Virus record (IMG/VR): IMGVR_UViG_3300007513_000007
Location: 32,001-96,000 of that record
Direction: 5' to 3' (one strand)
Origin: a virus
DNA: 64,000 nt
A model generated the notes under the pieces. That model was not told the origin of the DNA. It was given only the letters and a program-made list of their open reading frames with translations, and made no database searches. Below are positions 3,666-48,472 of the stretch, in pieces (the stretch's first letter is position 1; each line of letters begins with the position of its first letter). Both the position numbers and the translations under genes were made by a program.

Positions 3666-4033
3666 GTTGTTGTAGCCTCGCCTAAAAGGGTTTGAAAACA
3701 GTCTGCGATTTTCAATGCGGTTTCAATGTGCTGGATTTGAGCAAGATAGGGGTCCCAAAAAGTTTTCTGCGCGGTTCTACAAGGCTGTCCGTTGAAGGTC
3801 CTCGTTCGACTTGGCGAAGGCTCGCCTCATCCTTCGGGTGCCCTACGCCTCTCCCCAAGAACAGGTACGCCATGCAAGCCACGCGATCCCCGCAGGGACG
3901 TTACGCACGACGTACTCTGCATGGTCGGCACTGTGGGTGGAGGTGATGCAGCCGCGTAGCCATGCCAGGGCCAACGCCAACTCATCAGCCGTACCGCTGG
4001 CACCGCAGATCACCGCAGACACAGAGGCCCCAA

Positions 4034-8376: not shown

Positions 8377-9726
8377 ATGGCCCCTCGCCCGAACAAAGCA
8401 GACGAATCCTGGCTCTCTGGAGCCAAGTACCGTGCAACCCACCAGAGCACCATCGACGGTGTGTTGGGTGCTGGTGTGCGCTCCGTCTCCAGCCGGGGGC
8501 AGAACTTCTACAACAAGGACAAGTGGCCTGCACGCCAGTTCACTGCTGCCTTCTGTAAGTGGGCTGCGTCCAACCCTGACAACAGCATCCCGCTGACCCC
8601 CGAGATCGTGCGGGCCTTCTGTCTGGCCGGGAACGAGGACCTCCCCTGTTGGGAGCACCCCGAGATCGTCATCGCCTCTACGCCTGACAACCTCTCTGCT
8701 TTCATGCGGGATGCTCTGGTTGGCGGTGGCTACCATGAGGCATGGCACACAGAGTACAGCCGTCGTGCTGACCTCGACGTGGCTGAAGTCTGGAACCGTA
8801 TCGAGTCCCTGTGGGGCCTCGTCCCGAACTGGGCACCCTACGTCAAGGCGTTGCTCACCTGGGGCAACATCATCGAGGACATTCGCATCGAGCGTTGCGG
8901 GTGCCGCAAGTACCCTGGCTCCCCCAAGAAGATGGAGGCTCTGCAAGACCTCATTCTCATGCAGGAAGAGAAGGGCCGTGAAGCCTCCGAGCACCGTGGG
9001 CTTCCCACGAACGATGACATGGCTACGGTTGTCGGCACCTTCCGGGACCTGGGCCTGGGATACGACACGACGCGCCAGAACGCCGCCTACACGCAGTACC
9101 AGCGCCGTAGCTCCCAAGGGTATGCCCTCGTCACTGAAGGCCCTCTGCGGCCCCTCCTGGACCGCGCAATCGCCCTTGGAGACGAGGATGACATGGAGCA
9201 CCTCTGGATCGCTATGGAAGTAGTGGCAGTGCTTGTGGCTCTCGGCCAGCCTCCCCAGGAAGGTGACGGTCCCGAAGGTGACGGTCCTGGCGATCCTCCT
9301 CAAGACCAGGATGCCACTTGCCCCAAGTGTCGGAGCAAGGACGTGGTGTACCGTCCCTCGCAGAAGGTCATCCACTGCAACGCCTGTGGCTTCGAGCAGA
9401 AGATGGAAGAAGGCGGCGGCGGCGGCGGCAAGGGACCTTCCGTGAACGTGAAGGTGGACCCCAACGATCCCGGTGCCCAAGACGAGGGTAGTGAGTCTGG
9501 TGAGTCCAGCGAGTCTGGCGAAGGTCAGGAAGGCGAAGGTCAGGAAGGCGAAGGCTCTGGCGAGGGCGGTAGCAGCGACAAGAAGCCTGTCTTCAAGGTC
9601 GGTGACCGTGCCCGAGTCAAGGCTGGCCCCCTGGCTGGCAAGACGGTCGAGGTGACCTCTGCCTCCGCACCTGACAGCGAGGGTAACCAGGAACTTCAGT
9701 ACGCAGTGGTGGAGGATGCAGCGTAG
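8377..9726 (+). CDS. CobT-like N-terminal half: HExxH domain, Zn ribbon, acidic linker, KOW-like tail
   Basis: YHEAWH, NIIEDIRIE, CPKC..CNAC, G/E-rich linker, FKVGDRARVKAGPLAGKTVEV. Confidence 0.8.
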   Translation: MAPRPNKADESWLSGAKYRATHQSTIDGVLGAGVRSVSSRGQNFYNKDKWPARQFTAAFCKWAASNPDNSIPLTPEIVRAFCLAGNEDLPCWEHPEIVIASTPDNLSAFMRDALVGGGYHEAWHTEYSRRADLDVAEVWNRIESLWGLVPNWAPYVKALLTWGNIIEDIRIERCGCRKYPGSPKKMEALQDLILMQEEKGREASEHRGLPTNDDMATVVGTFRDLGLGYDTTRQNAAYTQYQRRSSQGYALVTEGPLRPLLDRAIALGDEDDMEHLWIAMEVVAVLVALGQPPQEGDGPEGDGPGDPPQDQDATCPKCRSKDVVYRPSQKVIHCNACGFEQKMEEGGGGGGKGPSVNVKVDPNDPGAQDEGSESGESSESGEGQEGEGQEGEGSGEGGSSDKKPVFKVGDRARVKAGPLAGKTVEVTSASAPDSEGNQELQYAVVEDAA

Positions 9727-9754
9727 GGGGTTCCCCCTCCCTCGTTGCCCCGTA
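9727..9754 (+). promoter_or_regulatory. class I promoter motif
   Basis: exact match between the two CobT-like halves. Confidence 0.8.
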
Positions 9755-9775: not shown

Positions 9776-11185
9776 ATGTCTATGTCCATTCTGCTCAAGC
9801 TCGGTGAAGCCATCTTTGGCACCAACAACGACCTGTCCCTCATCAGCGATGGTGAAGGTGGAGAGGGCACTGATGGTGACGGCGAAGGCGAGGGCGGTGA
9901 GCAGGACGGCCCCGAAGGTGGCGACGAAGGCCAGCCCGGTGACGGTGAGGGCAAGGACGGCGAAGGGAAGGGCAAGGGCCAACCCCAAGCTGGAAATGAG
10001 TTCTCTGGCGAGATTGGCGAAGGTGACACCACCTCTGACACCACAGGCCAGCACACCAACGGCGCTGGCGGGCACTGTGATTCAGGCTCTGCCCGTGACG
10101 ACAGGGCTATTGCCCAAGCACTCCTCGCAGCCATCGAGAACGGCGAACTGTCCGGTCTGGTGGACAACAACGATGCTCTTGGTGACGCCTTGGGTGAACT
10201 CCGGGACAAGGACCAGCCCTGTGAGGATAACGAGAAGCCCTGGAACCCCTATGACCGCTCCTCTGACACCGTAGAGCTTGTGAGAGCGCGTTCTGGTGAC
10301 AAGGAGCACGCTCTGCGCCTTGCCAACTCGGTGAAGAAGGAAGTGGCTGCTATCCGCACACGCCTCCGTTCCAAGTTCCTCCAGAACCGTGGTCGCCGCA
10401 CCATTCATGGTGTTCAGAACGGTCGTGGACTGTCCGAGCGCCGTCTGGTCCAGAGCATGGTCGAGATCACCGCAGGGTCCCGTCCTACTCGCCCTGACTA
10501 CACCAAGGTTCGCAAGCCTGACTGCTCGCTGGCTGTGGCCATCGTCCTCGATGAGTCTGGTTCAATGGGAAGCCACCTCCGGGATGCCTCTCGCGCCATG
10601 ATGGCGATTGCAGAGCCTCTGGATGCAGTGGGCGCTCCGGTCATGGCCATCGGCTTCCGTGATAGCAGCGGTTCGGGACACCACCCCAACCGTGACGAGA
10701 TTTATGCTCCCGACGGCAGCTACAACTTCCATCGCTGGGGAAGCATCCGCATCGACGTGTTCAAGCAGTGGGACGAGAAGTGGCGCAAGGTGATGCCCCG
10801 TATGGCGCGTACACGGGCCACAGGAGGCACTCCGATGTCTGATGGCGTCCAGTATGCCCTCCAGGCCCTCTCCGAGCGTCCAGAGCGCCACAGGGTCATG
10901 CTGGTCATCACTGATGGCTACCCGAATGGAGGCCACGCAGAGGTCATCAAGCGCCAGATCCGTATCGCACGGGAAGCAGGTATCGCTATCGTCGGTATCG
11001 GCATCGACTCGGGCTGCGATGCAGTGTCCCACCACTTCGACCTCTCGGTTCAGTGCCACGACATCTCCCAGCTTCCCAAGAACCTGCTGGACGTGCTGGA
11101 GGAGATCGTCTTCCCCTCCAAGTCCAAGAAGGCTGTCATCGACACCAAGATGAAGCAGTTGAAGGGGCGCAGGAAGAGTGCTTGA
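9776..11185 (+). CDS. VWA-domain protein (CobT-like C-terminal half)
   Basis: MIDAS LDESGSM, GGTPM, LVITDG; acidic G/D/E-rich N-terminus; start re-picked at ATG 9776 after AAGGAG. Confidence 0.9.
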   Translation: MSMSILLKLGEAIFGTNNDLSLISDGEGGEGTDGDGEGEGGEQDGPEGGDEGQPGDGEGKDGEGKGKGQPQAGNEFSGEIGEGDTTSDTTGQHTNGAGGHCDSGSARDDRAIAQALLAAIENGELSGLVDNNDALGDALGELRDKDQPCEDNEKPWNPYDRSSDTVELVRARSGDKEHALRLANSVKKEVAAIRTRLRSKFLQNRGRRTIHGVQNGRGLSERRLVQSMVEITAGSRPTRPDYTKVRKPDCSLAVAIVLDESGSMGSHLRDASRAMMAIAEPLDAVGAPVMAIGFRDSSGSGHHPNRDEIYAPDGSYNFHRWGSIRIDVFKQWDEKWRKVMPRMARTRATGGTPMSDGVQYALQALSERPERHRVMLVITDGYPNGGHAEVIKRQIRIAREAGIAIVGIGIDSGCDAVSHHFDLSVQCHDISQLPKNLLDVLEEIVFPSKSKKAVIDTKMKQLKGRRKSA

Positions 11186-11191
11186 AAGAGG

Positions 11192-11219
11192 GGGGTTCCC
11201 GCTCGGAGCCTCTCCCGTA
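11192..11219 (+). promoter_or_regulatory. class I promoter motif
   Basis: exact match directly upstream of an ORF-less structured region. Confidence 0.8.
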
Positions 11220-11226
11220 TAGAGGT

Positions 11227-11830
11227 CAGCACAGCGAGACACCTCGCTGGTAAGTCTCAAGTCCTTGGTCTTTGTTGACCCTGACTGGAAGTGCTGGCTC
11301 ACATGGGACGTTCGAGATCGAAACCATGCAGCGCGGACGGATACGGAGAGAAGACCAGGGCAACCTCTTTGACATTCAAGTAAGTGTTTTGAGTAGCGAT
11401 CCGTATGGTCAGGGGTAAGGAAACGACCCCTCTTGGTGAGTTAGAGTCTCATCCGGTTCAAAGTAACCGAAGGGCGAATCGAGAGCAGCCCGACCCTCTA
11501 TAAGTGCCGCGCAACCCGTGACGAGCGGGGGAGGGTGCGGATTGAAGGTTCCTGTGGCGGTCGCGAACGTCACAGAAGCACCTTGGGGCGGGAGCCTCAA
11601 GGGGAACAGAAGCACGGCCCACTCTGTGGAGGCCATATCCAGGTCAGAAGCAGAGCGTCGTGTTCTACTCAAAACCCTTACTTGAATGCCAAGGAAACGC
11701 ATCACCAATAGAGCCGTTGATCCGCTTGATTGCGAGTAAAGGACCCCGCCAGGGGTCAGACGGTCATGTTCTCGGACGAAGGGTGATGTAGCGAGACAGC
11801 CTGCCGAGATTCAGGTCCTCGCTTCCCTTG
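11227..11830 (+). ncRNA. candidate large structured ncRNA 1 (family unknown)
   Basis: No credible ORF; 26/28-bp long-range helix 11369-11396/11665-11692; about 8 further hairpins, one capped by a GGGA tetraloop; CAGAAGCA x3; own promoter motif. Ends approximate. Confidence 0.75.
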
Positions 11831-11919
11831 GACCTCGGACATATTCTGTCCGGGTTCCATAAAATCGCCCCTCTGGGGGTGTACAAGCCCGATTCTGTGA
11901 TAAGATTTATTTCGAGAGG

Positions 11920-11947
11920 GGGGTTCCCCACAGTTCCTCCCTCCGTA
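11920..11947 (+). promoter_or_regulatory. class I promoter motif
   Basis: exact match upstream of 12014. Confidence 0.8.
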
Positions 11948-12013
11948 TTGAGACCATCACCCCATCACCCCAGCGCCTCAACCCATTCCGGGTGCAGGCC
12001 AAAGGAGTTCCGA

Positions 12014-12820
12014 ATGACCATCGACGCCACCAACGCATCTTCCTTCGCCACCGCAGCCGCTCTCGCAGAAGCTCGGAACGGCACCTTCACCGGCCTGATC
12101 ACCACCAAGCGTGGCAAGGTCGTGGGTGGAACCCTCTACGGTGACGACACCGTTCACGCCGTCATCATCACTGGCTTCAGCTACATGGGTCTGGTCGAGC
12201 GTTCGCTCGCCAAGCTCCAGGCCATGTCTGCTGCTGACCTCGCTGCCCTCGTGGCCGACGGTCGGGAAGGCTACGACAGCCGCAAGAAGACTGCGAGCCT
12301 CGTGGCCCTCACTCAGGCTGACTACGTTGCCGCTCGCGATGCCCTCGTGGCTTCCTTCCAGAAGACTCTGGCGGGCACCAACAGCGCCACGACCGATCAC
12401 GTCTATGAGTCCCTTCAGGTTCTCCACGACGACGGCACGGTCGAGAGCGTCCGGGGCGCACGGGTCTACCGCTGCGTGGCTTCCAACCCCAACCACGAGT
12501 GCAAGTGCCGCGACTGCTCCGGTGACAAGCGTGCCCCCGTGGACGGTCAGGTGAACCTCTCTGGCCTGCTCATCGGCTCCAAGGTCATCACTGCTGCTGC
12601 TAACGGCCCCAAGCCTGCTGCCCGGAGTGGCGTGGCGACCGTCGCCAAGAACGCTCTTCGGAGCCGCCTGCCCATCAGCCGCTACGTCAGCTACCGTCTG
12701 GAGCAGGGTGGTTCCTGGATTCTGAACGCAGGTGGCACCGCTGCCGCAGCCGCCACCAACGGTGCGGTGACCTTCAACGAGGACCGTGTGGCTGATGCCC
12801 TCGACCTCCTGGTTGCCTAA
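12014..12820 (+). CDS. hypothetical protein (Ala/Thr-rich, C..C..H.C.C..C cluster)
   Basis: start re-picked at ATG 12014 after AAGGAG; strongly biased codon usage. Confidence 0.85.
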   Translation: MTIDATNASSFATAAALAEARNGTFTGLITTKRGKVVGGTLYGDDTVHAVIITGFSYMGLVERSLAKLQAMSAADLAALVADGREGYDSRKKTASLVALTQADYVAARDALVASFQKTLAGTNSATTDHVYESLQVLHDDGTVESVRGARVYRCVASNPNHECKCRDCSGDKRAPVDGQVNLSGLLIGSKVITAAANGPKPAARSGVATVAKNALRSRLPISRYVSYRLEQGGSWILNAGGTAAAAATNGAVTFNEDRVADALDLLVA

Positions 12821-12840
12821 ACCTCAACCTCTAACCAACT

Positions 12841-12868
12841 GAACCCCCGTCCCTGTGGCGGGGGTTCT
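12841..12868 (+). terminator. hairpin, probable terminator
   Basis: GAACCCCCG/CGGGGGTTC stem just after the 12820 stop; its 3-prime arm doubles as a degenerate class I -35 box. Confidence 0.55.
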
Positions 12869-12919
12869 TGCGTCTCGTGTCCGGGTAGTAGAGGGAGGGC
12901 CTCTTGCTGGAGGTGTGCC

Positions 12920-13246
12920 ATCCCTATCTGGCCCAACACAGAACCCGGAACACAACAGAGCACCATTCTCGACTGGCTCTATGAGAACGGTCCAGACTTC
13001 ACCCCCACCACCGCCTCCATCGCTGATCACCTTGGGTTCGAGCGCAAGTACCGAACCAAGCGTGGCAAGGGTGGGTCAGTGCAGTGGCAACTGATCGCGG
13101 ATCCTGACGTGAACCTGGAGGCCCACGAGGAGCATCTCCTCGCCCACAAGATCCAGGAGGTACGGATGCGACGACTCGAACAACGCATCAAGGTTCTCGA
13201 AGACTTGATCCTGGAGATGGGGTCCCGCCTCGAAGACGCTCCATAG
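12920..13246 (+). CDS. HTH-like/coiled-coil hypothetical protein, non-canonical start
   Basis: Open frame IPIWPNTEPGTQQSTILDWLYENG..TTASIADHLG..RMRRLEQRIKVLEDLILEMG; GGAGG lies 6 nt before ATC 12920; no in-frame ATG/GTG/TTG near the 5-prime end. Confidence 0.6.
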   Translation: MPIWPNTEPGTQQSTILDWLYENGPDFTPTTASIADHLGFERKYRTKRGKGGSVQWQLIADPDVNLEAHEEHLLAHKIQEVRMRRLEQRIKVLEDLILEMGSRLEDAP

Positions 13247-13256
13247 GGGACAACCC

Positions 13257-13478
13257 TTATTCAGAGTCGCTGGAGTCGCGTTTCTTGGTGAGCAGTCCGA
13301 GCGCAGCACGAGCAATCATGACAGTTCCAGCAAGCTGGTGCGCCGCCTCGCCGCTTTGGATGACGCCCTTGGCTTGGTCCCACCACACCGAGAGTTGAGC
13401 ACAAGCTCCAAAGGCACGAGCCACCTTGACAGGGTCATGGCCGCAGGCGGGGCAAGGTCGATGGGATCGGTCAGTCAT
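13257..13478 (-). CDS. hypothetical protein with CPAC motif
   Basis: 73 aa ORF, RBS GGAGG. Confidence 0.7.
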   Translation of the reverse strand: MTDRSHRPCPACGHDPVKVARAFGACAQLSVWWDQAKGVIQSGEAAHQLAGTVMIARAALGLLTKKRDSSDSE

Positions 13479-13511
13479 TCTCTTCCCTCCTCCCTACGAA
13501 GACAAAAGGCT

Positions 13512-13648
13512 CACCACCGGCAGTGGTCTGCAACACCACCGGCAGTGGTTTCCTGAAGCAACGCGGGAGTCACACCCACCTGTCCCGAGACGACACGAAG
13601 CGACAAGAGACGACAAGAGACGACAAGAGACGACACGAGGTGTCCCGA
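13512..13648. repeat. 16-bp direct repeat x2 plus 10-bp tandem repeat x5
   Basis: CACCACCGGCAGTGGT at 13512 and 13534; CGACA(A/C)GA(G/A)(A/G) at 13591-13640 flanked by TGTCCCGA. Confidence 0.85.
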
Positions 13649-13832
13649 CGGGATGGACAAGAACTGGTTTGTCCGTCCCGTCGGCAGCCTGAATCAGTTT
13701 CACTGTGCCCATGCAGCCGAGCGTCACACGAGAACTCGCCAGCGATTTTGCTGGCGAACCCCGTTCGGTATGATTTCAACACCAGCTTGATGGCTGCTAC
13801 CCATAATCGCCGTTTTCAGCGTTCTACGAGAG

Positions 13833-14501
13833 GTGGTTCATATCGAAACACCTCTCACGCAACATGGACAACCCCCCGTGAAACTCCCCGCAAGCAACAC
13901 CCCAAGCAACACGGAGCCAGTAAGCCTCGCGGTGTCCCTACTGAACCAACCCTTCCTTCAGTACGAGAGGAAGCCTGCTACACAGAAAGCTCTCTCTGGA
14001 CCGCCTACGGACCCAACGTGGTGGATTCCATACAGGGACAGGGCACTCCTACATACATGCCTATGGACAGGGTGGGGTATGAACCCTCTCCTCCAGGTAT
14101 CCCTACAGCAAGCAAAGGACGCCCTCGAAGACTCTCCACTTGCTTCAAGCCTCATCCCCGAACCTCTATGGAACGACTGCTGGGAATCTCTCCAGCTATG
14201 GGAACAGGCAGCCAACCTCCTGGTATGCACACCCAAGCATCGCTACTGTGGAAATCACCTGCTATTCATCTCCCGAAAGCACACAGACCTTTCCAGGTAT
14301 CCCGGAGGACGTGTCTCTTGCAGGGAGTCTCTCTGGCGCACCTTCCACCGAATCAGGGAGGGACTCACCATCACGGAGATCCAGGAAGTGAGTGCTTCTC
14401 TCTCTGAAGTGTCTGGTATCAGTCTTCCCTCTCCCCCTCCAAGCAGACCTCGGGTATTCACTCCGCGATCTATGGCCCTGTGGCTCTCCTCGCAGAAGTA
14501 G
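13833..14501 (+). CDS. possible hypothetical protein
   Basis: 222 aa frame ends just before a class I motif, but codon usage is atypical and the start is unclear. Confidence 0.35.
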   Translation: MVHIETPLTQHGQPPVKLPASNTPSNTEPVSLAVSLLNQPFLQYERKPATQKALSGPPTDPTWWIPYRDRALLHTCLWTGWGMNPLLQVSLQQAKDALEDSPLASSLIPEPLWNDCWESLQLWEQAANLLVCTPKHRYCGNHLLFISRKHTDLSRYPGGRVSCRESLWRTFHRIREGLTITEIQEVSASLSEVSGISLPSPPPSRPRVFTPRSMALWLSSQK

Positions 14502-14502
14502 G

Positions 14503-14530
14503 GGGGTTCTTACTGCTCTCCAAAAACGTA
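14503..14530 (+). promoter_or_regulatory. class I promoter motif (GGGGTTCT variant)
   Basis: N16 spacing to CGTAGAGAG upstream of 14560. Confidence 0.75.
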
Positions 14531-14559
14531 GAGAGCAAGAAGACAAGGAGTTGATCCCC

Positions 14560-15021
14560 ATGCCCTCTGACCTCTACGACCTCTTTGGAACCAAGACCGA
14601 GGGACCTGCGGGTGCCCCTTACACCAAAGGGTCCATCACCTCTATGGAAGCTGCTGAAGCCATCGCTGACGTTGCTGGTAGGCTACGCAGGCAGGTGTAC
14701 CAGTACATCGTGTCCTGTGGCGCTTCAGGCACTACGGATGATGCTGCTGAAGTAGCCCTCGACATGAAGCACACCACTTACACTGCCCGTAGGGGTGAAC
14801 TGGTCAAGCGGGGACTCGTTGCTGACTCTGGGCACAAGGCAAAGACCCGTTCTGGCCGTAGGGCTACCATCTGGGTTGCCGTGAACCCCAAGAACGCTGC
14901 GAACCTCAAGGAAGTGTCGGACCTCAACAAGATCCGCACCAAGCTGAAGGGCAAGGTCAGCAAGATGTCCGAGGAACAGTGCGAAAAGGTCCTCAACGCC
15001 ATTGAAGGCTGGGGGCTGTAG
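14560..15021 (+). CDS. winged-helix DNA-binding protein
   Basis: RRQVYQYIV..GTTDD..EVALDMKHTTYTARRGELVKRGLV.DSG..TRSGR.A.IW; RBS AAGGAG. Confidence 0.8.
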   Translation: MPSDLYDLFGTKTEGPAGAPYTKGSITSMEAAEAIADVAGRLRRQVYQYIVSCGASGTTDDAAEVALDMKHTTYTARRGELVKRGLVADSGHKAKTRSGRRATIWVAVNPKNAANLKEVSDLNKIRTKLKGKVSKMSEEQCEKVLNAIEGWGL

Positions 15022-18882: not shown

Positions 18883-19645
18883 GGGGCCACCCTTTCGGAT
18901 GACCCCCTCATGAGGGAACAAACAAGCACACATGCACTTGCTCCCAGCCGTGACCTCCAAGCCTTTTGAGCCTGTCCCCGTTCGGGTTAGGAGTGTGAAC
19001 ACCAGCAAGTAAAGCTGTTCACGACGTTCCTCCCTGTTCTTCGCAGTCTCCTACGACGGAACAGCACGCGATACTGCTGCCTACATTCTGTGTATCGGAG
19101 GGTAAGCTGTACACTTCTCCCTTCCTCCACACGACAACCTTTGATCTCTTGGGAAGATCGCCACTTGCCCCCTTTCGGGACGGTTGCCAGATTGCTCTGA
19201 CAACCAGAGAGGCTTCTGCATTCAGCAGTCCGATTCTGGGGAACAACCCCCTTCCCAAGACTTTGTTCTTGGTTATTGCCCTGCAACCGTTTCCTCAGTG
19301 AATCAGCAAGTCCGAGGATGCCCTTCGCAGCACTCCGACAGTGGAATGTCGGCTCATGCTCTGGACCACTGGGTGATTCTCGGAGCAACCACGCTCCATA
19401 ACTCACCCCCCTTCATAGTCAGGCGGCAGAGTGTGTGAACACCCCTTTCCTGAACAGGGTTCTGGCTACCTCCCGAAGGAGCCGACGACCCGGCAAGGGT
19501 ACGAAGGTTTTAGGACCCGTCAGCAGGGTCCACTCGCCACCCCTGCAAGCAGGAGCTTTGAGATTCGTTGAAACTGTAAAAGAACTATGCCGCTCTATGG
19601 TGACGGCTACCTGTTTTTTGGCGCTCTGCCAGTCATCAATGACTT
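18883..19645 (-). ncRNA. candidate large structured ncRNA 2 (family unknown)
   Basis: No credible ORF; cUUCGg, GCAA and two GAAA tetraloop hairpins on the minus strand plus at least 4 more stems; exact class I motif at 19654-19681 points into it. Ends approximate. Confidence 0.7.
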
Positions 19646-19652
19646 GTAACCT

Positions 19653-20054
19653 CTACGCGGTCACACTACCAAGGGAACCCCCCCTCAAAACCTTTTCTGC
19701 ATTTTTCAACGCACGCCACGCAGGACGGCCCTTCTTCTCGATCCAACGGTTAGCGACAGCAATAACATGCTTGCACGCTCCAGCACGCCCGTGGTCGGGG
19801 CACGAGCAGCTATGCCGACGTACCGCGTTCCGGTCGATGCTGATGGTCACCATGTAGTCCTGACGGCCCCTACAGAGAGCACGGAGGCCATGCTGACCAT
19901 CCCTGGCCCAAACGATATGGACACCGCTTGCACGGTACACGCGGCCAGTCTCGGACACCTTGATGAGTGCCCGCAGCCCACGCCCACGGTCTTCGACCTG
20001 GGAGATAGCCCACAAGAGGGACTCGGCTGCGCTCTTGGTGATGGTTCCTTTCAT
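19653..20054 (-). CDS. SWIM zinc-finger protein
   Basis: HSCSCPDH....CKHVIAV (CxC..CxH); start re-picked at ATG 20054. Confidence 0.85.
   Translation of the reverse strand: MKGTITKSAAESLLWAISQVEDRGRGLRALIKVSETGRVYRASGVHIVWARDGQHGLRALCRGRQDYMVTISIDRNAVRRHSCSCPDHGRAGACKHVIAVANRWIEKKGRPAWRALKNAEKVLRGGSLGSVTA
19654..19681 (-). promoter_or_regulatory. class I promoter motif
   Basis: exact match; -10 box overlaps the SWIM stop codon. Confidence 0.8.
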
Positions 20055-46322: not shown

Positions 46323-46400
46323 TGGCTGGGGCGGTTGGACTCGAACCAACAATCTCCGGGGTAACAACCCGGCGTCCTTGCCTATTAGGACCTCACCCCA
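46323..46400 (-). tRNA. tRNA-Asn(GTT)
   Basis: Full cloverleaf: acceptor TGGGGTG/CGCCCCA, D stem GTCC/GGAC, anticodon stem CCGGG/CCCGG with loop TTGTTAC, T arm GTTGG-TTCGAGT-CCAAC, discriminator G, encoded CCA. Confidence 0.95.
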
Positions 46401-47551: not shown

Positions 47552-48472
47552 ATGAACCAGACGACAGGAACTTATTTCGCCAGGAGAGAACACGGAAACC
47601 ACAAGGTCCTTGGGACCCCTCAAGGATTTGAGGTCTTTTGGCCCTCCGGTTCGGTGAAGTACCCCTCTGCTCGTCAAACCATCATCGCTCTTGTCAACGG
47701 GACCCCGGCCCCGGCCCCCCATGCAAGAGACCCCAAGCTCACCTTTGACCGCTACTTCAAGCGTGGCCGCTTCGCCTCCTCCTCGTCCTACCTGAAGACG
47801 GACGCTCTCGACATGTTCAGGCTGGTCCAAGAGGTTCCCCTCACCGTTGACCGTCCTGCCAAAGTCAAAGCAGCCCCTCCGATCACAGTGGTTGCCCCTA
47901 CGTTGGGCATTGACTTGGATGCCCGAGGCCACGAAGTCCGCAAGCTCTTCTTTGCTGGATTTCTTCGGCGTGTGCTTCGCCTTGGCTACGACCCGGAAGA
48001 GATGCTTCAGGAGATTTACAAAGGCATCCTCATCAGGAACCGGGGCAAGTGCCCTTTTGATGTCGCCAAGAGCAGCTTTGGCCACTACGTCCATATGGTT
48101 GCCGGTTGCATCATCTCCAACTACCACCGCAAGCAATCCCGCAGGAACCACTACGAACTCTTTGGGGTGACGGGGGTGGACGGCGATCTCCTGGACGTGT
48201 CGGAAGCTGACATCGCCATCGCAGACGACCGCACTGATGACTATGCGGCTGGAAGGATCGCTCGCCATTCGATCCTCTCTACTGTTGGACAACGTGCTCG
48301 CGACGTGGGCCATGACCCCAAACTCTCCATCCGGTGCGCCGAGTTGGCTATGGAGGGCTTTCAGAAGTCCGAGATCGCTGCCCGCGTTGGCGAAAGCCCC
48401 TCCCTGGTGGGTAAGACCCTTCGTATTGTGCGTAAGGCAGCGAGGGATTGGGATGCAGAGCAGCAGTTCTAA
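47552..48472 (+). CDS. ECF-like sigma-70 factor with N-terminal extension
   Basis: region 2-like DPEEMLQEIY..FDVAKSSFGHYV..IISNYHRK; region 4 HTH GFQKSEIAARVGESPSLV. Confidence 0.82.
   Translation: MNQTTGTYFARREHGNHKVLGTPQGFEVFWPSGSVKYPSARQTIIALVNGTPAPAPHARDPKLTFDRYFKRGRFASSSSYLKTDALDMFRLVQEVPLTVDRPAKVKAAPPITVVAPTLGIDLDARGHEVRKLFFAGFLRRVLRLGYDPEEMLQEIYKGILIRNRGKCPFDVAKSSFGHYVHMVAGCIISNYHRKQSRRNHYELFGVTGVDGDLLDVSEADIAIADDRTDDYAAGRIARHSILSTVGQRARDVGHDPKLSIRCAELAMEGFQKSEIAARVGESPSLVGKTLRIVRKAARDWDAEQQF

What the first reader, a model, noticed from the sequence alone, without database searches (positions are those of the whole stretch)
11227..11830. Candidate ~600-nt structured ncRNA with its own promoter and a 28-bp long-range helix
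Seen: no credible ORF between an exact class I promoter (11192-11219) and the next one (11920). TTGACATTCAAGTAAGTGTTTTGAGTAG (11369-11396) pairs 26/28 with 11665-11692, enclosing ~270 nt of hairpins: AGGGGT/ACCCCT 11411-11431, CGGTT/AACCG 11454-11469, GGGC/GCCC 11472-11491, ACCCTC/GAGGGT 11493-11536, CTGTG/CACAG 11552-11575, CCTTGGGGC-GGGA-GCCTCAAGG 11581-11602. Further stems: AGCGAG/CTCGCT 11233-11248 and GACCCC/GGGGTC 11742-11757; AGCGAG..CTCGCT recurs at the 3-prime end. Known: phages carry large ornate RNAs of unknown function (GOLLD, ROOL). Inference: a large functional RNA, possibly a new class; I cannot assign it to a family by eye.
Basis: partly seen in the sequence, partly recalled or inferred. 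Interest (0 to 1): 0.88.

Follow-up and report, generated by a model that had tools for sequence, protein, structure and literature searches.

The report
New structured RNA gene in jumbo phage
A roughly 257-kb marine phage carries, behind one of its own promoters, a gene for a folded RNA of about 330 nucleotides that fits no known RNA family; related phages keep its shape through matching mutations, but its job is unknown.

Summary
The gap 11186-12013 has no conserved ORF.

Homologous copies exist in four to five related phage lineages from marine metagenomes. On a 10-sequence alignment, 98.7% of the paired positions form standard pairs. Nineteen pairs change on both sides, against 11.8±1.7 in shuffles and 1-3 in slid controls. 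Many G·U pairs and the folding energies point to the + strand. Rfam 15 and ARAGORN find no known family.

The conserved unit is smaller than claimed. It is the ~330-nt core 11366-11695, closed by helix P1. The 5' leader comes in three unrelated types. The 3' tail of the window is the decayed remnant of a deleted small-ORF cassette. In relatives that keep those ORFs, another promoter sits 40-50 nt after P1, so the RNA is its own transcription unit.

Function is unknown. My best guess is a stand-alone RNA trimmed or cut at P1 (a possible RNase III substrate) that acts through a bound protein. No transcript data could be obtained. The family was found only in this one phage clade.

The parts
11190..11224 (+). 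Promoter of the RNA: phage-specific bipartite motif (G-run+TTCC, 15-nt spacer, CCGTA-type second box). The transcription start is inferred near 11227-11232.
   Evidence: The motif has about 30 copies in the genome, mostly just upstream of an RBS and ATG. It is conserved in front of the RNA in every lineage: 82% identity to L104, while the leader behind it is 26%.
11227..11365 (+). 5' leader, type A, specific to this lineage. Probably removed or dispensable.
   Evidence: It cannot be aligned with leader types B and C of the relatives.
11366..11396 (+). P1, 5' strand of the long-range closing helix.
   Evidence: The consensus has 24 pairs: 16 invariant, 3 covarying, and an A·C mismatch (11372·11689) kept in all lineages.
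11397..11404 (+). P2, 5' strand. It pairs with 11537-11544 and closes the variable 5' subdomain.
   Evidence: Four of its 8 pairs change on both sides, and 98.6% of cells are paired.
11405..11536 (+). Variable 5' subdomain of hairpins. It is shortened by about 55 nt in the sister lineages, and hairpins are swapped for other hairpins in L019, L104 and L126.
   Evidence: Alignments. Helices 3-5.
11537..11544 (+). P2, 3' strand.
   Evidence: helix 2.
11548..11608 (+). Conserved 3' subdomain, first part. It holds hairpin Pb (11553-59/11568-74, 8-nt loop) and hairpin Pc (11581-89/11594-602, GGGA tetraloop). Segment 11603-11608 can pair either with 11548-11552 or with 11661-11666.
   Evidence: Pc: 6 of 9 pairs covary. 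Pb: 1 of 10 pairs covaries and the rest are invariant. The alternative pairings are read.
11609..11664 (+). Conserved 3' subdomain, second part. It has invariant single-stranded stretches and a small hairpin (11621-26/11634-39). The third CAGAAGCA copy starts at 11645; the other two start at 11573 and 11607.
11665..11695 (+). P1, 3' strand.
11696..11860 (+). Non-conserved tail. It is the decayed remnant of the promoter, RBS and first codons of a small-ORF cassette that relatives still carry. An ATG directly followed by a stop lies at 11786-11791.
   Evidence: Alignments. Identity to relatives is 35%. The promoter motif is present at the matching place in L096, L032, L104, L128 and L126 and absent here.
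11918..11952 (+). Next promoter of the same class, serving the 268-aa gene at 12014-12820. It marks the downstream limit of the RNA unit.
9776..11185 (+). Upstream neighbour: a protein with a VWA / CobT_C-like domain. Not part of the RNA.

Best explanation
This is a gene for a structured non-coding RNA of a family not described before, carried by a clade of marine phages of about 257 kb.

Shown: a phage-type promoter motif is followed by no conserved ORF. The conserved unit is a 270-330 nt core (window 11366-11695). A 24-31 bp helix P1 closes the core. Inside P1, helix P2 closes a variable 5' subdomain. A strongly conserved 3' subdomain follows, with two hairpins (one capped by a GNRA tetraloop), invariant single-stranded stretches and three CAGAAGCA repeats. 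Compensatory changes maintain the helices, and G·U pairs fit only the + strand. In relatives the unit sits between two promoters, so it is its own transcription unit.

Inferred: the leader and tail are interchangeable or decayed, and no intrinsic terminator is seen. The mature RNA is therefore most likely defined by P1, either as a block to exonucleases or as a cut site for a host double-strand RNase such as RNase III, in the way rRNAs are cut out of their precursors. The near-invariant sequence of P1, its conserved A·C mismatch and the invariant loops suggest recognition by a protein. That would make the RNA a trans-acting scaffold or decoy during infection. The alternative pairing of 11603-11608 with 11548-11552 or 11661-11666 may be a conformational switch.
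For: Promoter.

No coding signal: gene callers call nothing in the gap. Substitutions fall 17/16/14 over the three codon positions, there is a 1-nt indel, and no ORF is shared between lineages.

Structure: z = -6.8 on the + strand against -2.6 on the - strand. RNAalifold gives 90 pairs on 5 sequences and 76 on 10. With 10 sequences, 98.7% of cells are paired and 19 pairs change on both sides, against 11.8±1.7 in shuffles (0 of 500 reach it) and 1-3 when the partners are slid. With 5 sequences the figures are 23 against 13.7±2.1. Twenty of the 76 pairs are G·U in at least one sequence.

The conserved part is confined to promoter and core: identity to L104 is 82% for the promoter, 26% for the leader, 94% and 84% for the two P1 strands, 76-83% for the subdomains and 35% for the tail.

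Independence from downstream ORFs: relatives carry two ORFs (L096, L104, L128), one ORF (L126) or none (window, L127, L019) behind the same core. Where ORFs exist they have their own promoter 40-50 nt after P1. In the window that promoter and the ORFs have decayed, while the RNA promoter and core are intact.

No known family.
Against: All homologs come from one narrow clade: the neighbouring protein is 88-100% identical. Several copies are recombinants of each other, so the number of independent substitution events is small. The shuffle control can overstate support for related sequences.

Sixteen of the 24 P1 pairs never vary, so they say nothing about pairing.

No terminator-like site was found, so read-through into the next gene is possible and a cis role is not excluded.

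No RNase III gene is in the 180-kb record, the host is unknown, and no partner protein was identified.

Relatives at 40-63% neighbour identity lack the RNA. In L029 the syntenic gap holds two small protein genes instead.
Confidence: 0.6

Rival explanations
1. The folded domain is a cis-acting 5' leader. It would control the stability, processing or translation of the genes downstream: the small ORFs in relatives and the 268-aa gene in this phage. It would not be a stand-alone RNA.
For: No terminator-like site lies between the RNA and the next gene. In most relatives small ORFs follow within about 95 nt. The X-Y-X' alternative pairing around 11548-11552, 11603-11608 and 11661-11666 resembles a switch.
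Against: Each downstream ORF and the 268-aa gene has its own promoter between itself and the RNA. The same core precedes two, one or no ORFs. In the window the ORF cassette and its promoter have decayed while the RNA promoter and core stay intact. No riboswitch or leader family matched.
Confidence: 0.2
2. The inverted repeat acts at the DNA level. It could be an invertible segment (inverton), a miniature transposable element with terminal inverted repeats, or a pair of protein-binding sites. In that case the RNA fold would be incidental.
For: The two 31-nt arms are nearly sequence-invariant across lineages, as the ends of mobile elements or recombinase sites are. L019, L104 and L127 carry a 125-nt insertion flanked by an 11-nt direct repeat next to the 5' arm. 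The region is a recombination mosaic.
Against: The element is single-copy in the genome. Every fetched locus that carries the core, about 30 loci (some from the same contig) across at least five lineages, has it in the same orientation. Compensatory changes occur in the internal helices P2, Pb and Pc, which a DNA-end function would not select. Twenty pairs use G·U, which fits only the + strand RNA. The folding asymmetry agrees. No recombinase was noticed next to it.
Confidence: 0.05
3. It is a very divergent or rearranged member of a known RNA class that the models miss. Candidates are a permuted two-piece tmRNA, a group I or group II intron, RNase P RNA, 6S RNA, or ROOL/GOLLD.
For: Leader type C in L126 and L032 carries a tRNA-like T arm, acceptor strand, discriminator and CCA. 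A complementary strand follows it, which is the order seen in permuted tmRNA genes. GNRA tetraloops and long-range helices are common to large ribozymes.
Against: cmscan against 4227 families gave nothing at E<=10 on the region or E<=1 on five relatives' loci. ARAGORN, which knows permuted tmRNAs, found nothing. No tag-like reading frame is conserved. The acceptor-like stem has G3-C70, not the G3·U70 pair that marks alanine acceptance (read; the identity rule is from my own knowledge). The tRNA-like piece is absent from the window's own leader. The flanking genes are whole, so this is not an intron in a gene.
Confidence: 0.05
4. The region is decaying former coding sequence, or it encodes a small protein. 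The apparent structure would come from G+C-rich sequence plus close relatedness of the copies.
For: The tail 11696-11860 is indeed a gene remnant. In the first 18 codons of the small frame at 11405, the 10 differences from L104 avoid second codon positions (my reading).
Against: That frame has no RBS. A 2-nt indel breaks it in L104, and it is deleted in the sister lineages. The conserved 3' subdomain shows no codon periodicity and has a 1-nt indel. Slid-partner controls, which keep the relatedness, drop from 98.7% to 35-45% paired.
Confidence: 0.03

Closest known systems
ROOL and GOLLD (large ornate RNAs, often in phages and prophages; Rfam families; cryo-EM multimers reported in bioRxiv 10.1101/2024.12.08.627333)
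   Same: An ORF-less, independently transcribed, highly structured RNA carried by a phage. It has GNRA tetraloops and long-range helices, and its function is unknown. In some lineages a tRNA-like element lies next to it. That ROOL and GOLLD often sit near tRNA genes is from my own knowledge.
   Different: No covariance-model match at all. The conserved core is about 330 nt, roughly half their size. One near-invariant 24-31 bp helix closes it. It is known only from one phage clade. Multimer formation was not tested.
RNase III processing stalks: the helices flanking 16S and 23S rRNA in rrn operons, and phage T7 and lambda RNase III sites
   Same: Distant complementary segments form a helix of more than two turns that brackets a folded RNA. 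It carries one or two conserved mismatches. This is a plausible way to define both ends of a mature RNA cut from a longer transcript (anatomy; the analogy rests on established knowledge).
   Different: Cleavage is not shown. The host and its RNase III are unknown. The bracketed RNA is not rRNA or mRNA.
Two-piece (circularly permuted) tmRNA
   Same: Leader type C of L126 and L032 has a T arm, an acceptor 3' strand and CCA, followed by the complementary 5' strand and then a long helix and hairpins.
   Different: ARAGORN and Rfam do not call it. There is no tag frame and no G3·U70. The window's own copy lacks the tRNA-like part.
Invertons and miniature inverted-repeat elements
   Same: A segment of about 270 bp lies between 31-bp inverted repeats whose sequence is strongly conserved.
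   Different: It has one orientation in every fetched locus that carries it and a single copy in the genome. Internal compensatory changes and G·U pairs show selection on the RNA.

Membership tests
Any Rfam 15 family (including GOLLD, ROOL, OLE, HEARO, raiA, IMES, RNase P, 6S, SRP, tmRNA, group I/II introns, riboswitches) | Match to the family covariance model at or near its gathering score | tested here: not met
   Across the whole window, only a tRNA at 46327-46399 reaches its gathering score. On 11100-12050 at E<=10 there is only a chance lncRNA hit of 14 bits. Five relatives' loci give nothing at E<=1.
tmRNA (one-piece or permuted) | tRNA-like domain with an alanine-type acceptor stem, plus a tag reading frame, as recognised by ARAGORN | tested here: not met
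   ARAGORN finds none in the window or in 7 relatives' loci. No reading frame is conserved. The tRNA-like minihelix is present only in leader type C and has G3-C70.
Group I / group II intron | Insertion within a host gene with exon continuity, and a conserved catalytic core (P3-P9, or domain V) | tested here: not met
   The upstream gene ends with its own stop at 11185 and the downstream gene starts at 12014 behind its own promoter. There is no intron model hit.
Retron msr-msd RNA | A reverse transcriptase gene next to the RNA | tested here: not met
   No RVT_1 match anywhere in the 180-kb record, though the record is incomplete. The neighbours are a VWA protein and small ORFs of unknown function.
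Y RNA / Ro60 module | A TROVE-domain (Ro60/Rsr) protein encoded in the genome | tested here: not met
   No TROVE match in the record. The upstream VWA protein has no TROVE domain.
Inverton (invertible promoter segment) | Both orientations present in the population, and a recombinase nearby | tested here: not met
   All fetched loci that carry the core, about 30, show one orientation. These are assemblies, so rare flipped forms would be missed.
RNase III-processed stable RNA (a functional analogy, not a sequence family) | A helix of at least about 20 bp formed by sequences flanking the mature RNA | tested here: met
   P1 has 24-31 bp with 1-3 mismatches in all lineages.
RNase III-processed stable RNA (a functional analogy, not a sequence family) | Actual cleavage within the helix, with discrete ends in vivo | not testable with these tools
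No RNase III gene is in the phage record.
New family proposed here | Secondary structure supported by compensatory changes on the promoter's strand | tested here: met
   P2 has 4 of 8 pairs with changes on both sides, Pc 6 of 9, and the P1 extension 3. Slid-partner controls give 1-3 pairs.

The most novel reading that the evidence does not exclude
This may be the founding example of a new class of phage-encoded structured RNA. It would be a self-contained RNA gene whose mature ~300-nt product is excised at a sequence-invariant double-stranded stalk. It would then act in trans during infection, for example as a protein-sequestering decoy or scaffold, a conformational switch, or a ribozyme. That would add a new kind to the short list of large orphan phage RNAs.
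Probability: 0.4. Interest if true: 0.78.

Novelty: new variant of a known kind. Interest (0 to 1): 0.62.

Why it matters
Large structured RNAs with their own promoters are rare in bacteria and phages. Each new class has so far led to new biochemistry, as with ribozymes, RNP scaffolds and the RNA-only cages of ROOL and GOLLD.

This one comes with a defined promoter, clear domain boundaries and a covariation-supported fold. It also comes with natural deletion variants: a full core and a core shortened by about 55 nt. Natural swaps of leader and tail show which part matters. An in-vitro transcript for probing, cryo-EM, RNase III assays and pull-downs could therefore be designed directly.

It also shows that uncultured marine jumbo phages of unknown host spend promoters on non-coding RNA. 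A second ORF-less unit behind a promoter, at 18924-19645 on the - strand, hints that this is not a one-off.

The weak points are the narrow distribution and the lack of any expression or functional data.

Tried and rejected
- **Known RNA families.** Rfam gave nothing at gathering scores or at E<=10. ARAGORN gave nothing.
- **Phage database.** BLAST of the region against 50,697 phage records found no match.
- **IMG/VR scans.** A scan for relatives of the VWA neighbour found none. A scan for the exact 26-nt arm gave nothing. An 18-nt arm pattern gave 6 hits, all chance matches in AT-rich coding DNA.
- **Pb hairpin pattern.** The 20-nt pattern found 19 hits in GTDB genomes and 1 in IMG/VR. All matched only the pattern itself under model R1, so they are chance.
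- **More distant relatives.** nhmmer and covariance model R1 were run over about 65 loci around more distant homologs of the 268-aa neighbour. No further members appeared. The weak hits in L037, L038 and L039 lie inside a 437-aa ORF.
- **Syntenic gap in L029.** It holds two small protein genes and a different promoter-like repeat, not the RNA.
- **ORF100.** A homolog search for the sister lineages' ORF100 found only its own cluster. Pfam and PHROGs on the small ORFs gave nothing credible.
- **Genes that might point to a mechanism.** Reverse transcriptase, TROVE and RNase III are absent from the record.
- **Apparent 155-nt insertion in L004/L012.** This is a scaffold gap of Ns, not a variant.
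- **Variation within the window's own lineage.** It is too low and too patchy to measure selection.
- **Literature.** Two searches found no description of this RNA.
- **Ideas considered and dropped.** A cobalamin riboswitch, suggested by the CobT-like neighbour, has no model hit. The TTGACA inside P1 is not a sigma-70 promoter, because there is no -10 box at any spacing. An SRP-like resemblance at 11619-11655 is short shared strings only, with no model hit.

Full report
**Where the window lies.** The window is bases 32001-96000 of a 180,576-nt IMG/VR virus record. Contigs that encode identical neighbouring proteins reach 256,885-257,122 nt in three separate assemblies, so the phage genome is about 257 kb. 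Pfam and PHROGs recognise few of its proteins. The finding sits in an 829-nt gap. Upstream is a gene for a protein with a VWA/CobT_C-like domain (9776-11185). Downstream is a 268-aa gene of unknown function (12014-12820).

**The observation.** The long inverted repeat came out independently as two 31-nt arms, 11366-11396 and 11665-11695, 90% complementary. Its score is 22, against 11.2±1.8 (maximum 18) in dinucleotide shuffles.

The "class I promoter" is real as a motif. A G-run plus TTCC is followed by 15-16 nt and then a CCGTA-type box. It occurs about 30 times in the record, nearly always 10-30 nt before an RBS and start codon. Copies lie at 11190-11224 and 11918-11952. That the motif drives transcription is inferred from this placement, not shown. 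A weak Sigma70_r2 match, below the cut-off, lies in the ORF 47552-48472.

Gene callers on 17 near-identical contigs place no gene in the gap. As RNA, the + strand folds with z = -6.8 and the - strand with z = -2.6.

**Relatives.** Most contigs of the same phage are 100% identical over the region. They therefore add nothing, apart from one mosaic variant, L019.

I searched with the 268-aa neighbour and then fetched DNA around its homologs. This gave homologous copies of the RNA in:
- a sister lineage (L032, L033/L096, L094-L103);
- L128-L130;
- L126;
- L104;
- L127.

In all of these the neighbour is 88-100% identical to the window's. Phages whose neighbour is only 40-63% identical have no detectable copy, by nhmmer or by a covariance model of the 3' subdomain. 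In one of them that keeps the synteny (L029), two small protein genes fill the gap. Pattern scans of IMG/VR and of GTDB genomes gave only chance matches. As far as these collections show, the family is confined to one phage clade.

**What is conserved.** Identity between the window and L104 is 82% for the promoter and 26% for the leader. It is 94% and 84% for the two P1 strands, 76-83% for the interior and 35% for the tail. It rises again to 78% at the next promoter.

The leader comes in three unrelated types. The tail of the window aligns, poorly, with the promoter, the RBS and the first codons of a small ORF that the relatives still have. About 560 nt, holding most of that ORF and a second one, are deleted here. 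An ATG directly followed by a stop is left at 11786-11791.

The functional unit is therefore promoter plus core (11366-11695), not the whole 600-690 nt.

**Structure.** On ten sequences (nine distinct), RNAalifold predicts 76 pairs. Of all the paired positions, 98.7% are standard pairs. Nineteen pairs show changes on both sides. Shuffles that keep column composition give 11.8±1.7, and none of 500 reaches 19. Sliding the partners by 1-3 columns keeps the relatedness and gives 1-3. The five-sequence alignment gave the same picture.

| Helix | Pairs | Changing on both sides | Note |
|---|---|---|---|
| P1 | 24 in the consensus | 3 (inner end), plus one A-U to G-C swap between L032 and L033 | 16 invariant; A·C mismatch kept everywhere |
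| P2 (11397-11404 with 11537-11544) | 8 | 4 | closes the variable 5' subdomain |
| Pb | 10 | 1 | the rest invariant |
| Pc | 9 | 6 | invariant GGGA tetraloop |

In the variable 5' subdomain, whole hairpins are replaced by other hairpins. One replacement has a GAAA loop, in L126.

Twenty of the 76 pairs are G·U in some sequence, which would be A·C on the other strand. The RNA is therefore read from the + strand, the strand of the promoter.

Substitutions in the conserved 3' subdomain fall evenly over the three codon positions (17/16/14). There is a single-base indel, and no frame is shared between lineages.

Segment 11603-11608 can pair with 11548-11552. The sister lineages support this with a U-A to C-G double change. 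It can also pair with 11661-11666, which L104 keeps fully. With so few lineages I cannot choose between them. It may be a switch.

**Its own transcription unit.** In every relative that keeps ORFs behind the RNA, another copy of the promoter motif lies 40-50 nt after the 3' strand of P1, directly before the RBS of the ORF (sequence). The same core is followed by two ORFs (L096, L104, L128), one (L126) or none (window, L127, L019). In the window the ORF promoter has decayed together with the ORFs, while the RNA promoter and the core are intact. This argues against a leader that serves those ORFs and for an RNA with a role of its own.

**What it is not.** Rfam 15 gives nothing, and ARAGORN finds no tmRNA. 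The flanking genes are whole, so it is not an intron. The record holds no reverse transcriptase, TROVE or RNase III gene.

A DNA-level reading (inverton or miniature transposon) is unlikely, for three reasons:
- The element is single-copy.
- It has the same orientation in all of the roughly 30 fetched loci that carry it.
- It shows compensatory and G·U changes in internal helices.

**How it may work (inferred).** There is no terminator-like site, and the flanks are free to vary. The ends of the mature RNA are therefore probably set by P1. P1 could act as a stable duplex that stops exonucleases. It could also be a substrate for a host double-strand RNase such as RNase III, as with rRNA precursors. 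At 24-31 bp it is long enough.

P1 is almost invariant in sequence while other helices drift freely. Its A·C mismatch, the loops of Pb and Pc and three CAGAAGCA repeats are also conserved. This points to recognition by a protein, and so to a scaffold or decoy role. None of this is shown.

**Verdict.** This is a real, conserved, structured RNA gene of a family not in Rfam. I put that at about 0.85. The fuller statement, including stand-alone action and processing at P1, I put at 0.6. It resembles the orphan large phage RNAs ROOL and GOLLD in kind but shares no detectable sequence or model match with them. The narrow distribution and the missing expression data keep the score moderate.

The scan's earlier notes on this genome covered the same stretch (e1-5799339, e1-5799345) and a second ORF-less unit (e1-5799346). 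No look-alike on other DNA had been noted.

Noticed in passing
window 18924-19645 (- strand), promoter at 19654-19686: A second stretch of about 720 nt follows the same promoter motif and has no convincing ORF. The RNA fold has z = -3.2. Model R1 finds no similarity to the RNA studied here.
   Followed up: partly
L126:2166-2262 and L032:575-672 (leader type C of the same RNA in relatives): This is a tRNA-like 3' half. It has a 5-bp T stem with the loop UUCAAAU, a 7-nt acceptor strand, a discriminator and CCA. A perfectly complementary 7-nt strand follows directly. ARAGORN and Rfam call nothing. It could be a remnant of a tRNA gene, or a processing signal for RNase P or RNase Z.
   Followed up: partly
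whole genome; window copies listed: About 30 copies of a bipartite promoter-like motif (G-run+TTCC, 15-16 nt, CCGTA+purine-rich box). It resembles ECF-sigma promoters. A weak Sigma70_r2 match (15 bits, below the cut-off) lies in the ORF 47552-48472. I did not check that one.
   Followed up: partly
L096:2366-2833 (sister lineages, between the VWA gene and the RNA promoter): An extra promoter plus a 141-aa ORF that the window lacks. The ORF is intact in ten contigs. Thirteen of the 14 variable sites of the 1-kb stretch fall in this unit and only one in the RNA. There is a weak SWIM zinc-finger hit below the cut-off.
   Followed up: partly
window 13500-14250 and 9500-9750: These are hot spots of variation: 49, 36 and 32 variable sites per 250 nt among otherwise near-identical contigs. 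The ORFs called in 12820-14560 look doubtful and differ between contigs. These look like recombination patches in the phage population.
   Followed up: no
window 11526 / 11580: Two independent assemblies break or scaffold exactly here (L004/L012 with a run of Ns; L020 starts at 11526). This is also the boundary of the L019 mosaic patch. Co-occurring variants of the RNA's 5' subdomain apparently split the assembly graph.
   Followed up: yes
L029:3495-3530 and 3884-3925: A more distant relative (43% identical VWA protein, same gene order) uses a different AT-rich repeated promoter-like sequence. It has two small protein genes where this phage has the RNA.
   Followed up: partly
L019, L104, L127, just upstream of the P1 5' strand: A 125-nt insertion relative to the sister lineages, flanked by an 11-nt direct repeat that duplicates the start of the P1 5' strand. 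It is either an insertion with duplication or a deletion between repeats in the sister lineage.
   Followed up: no
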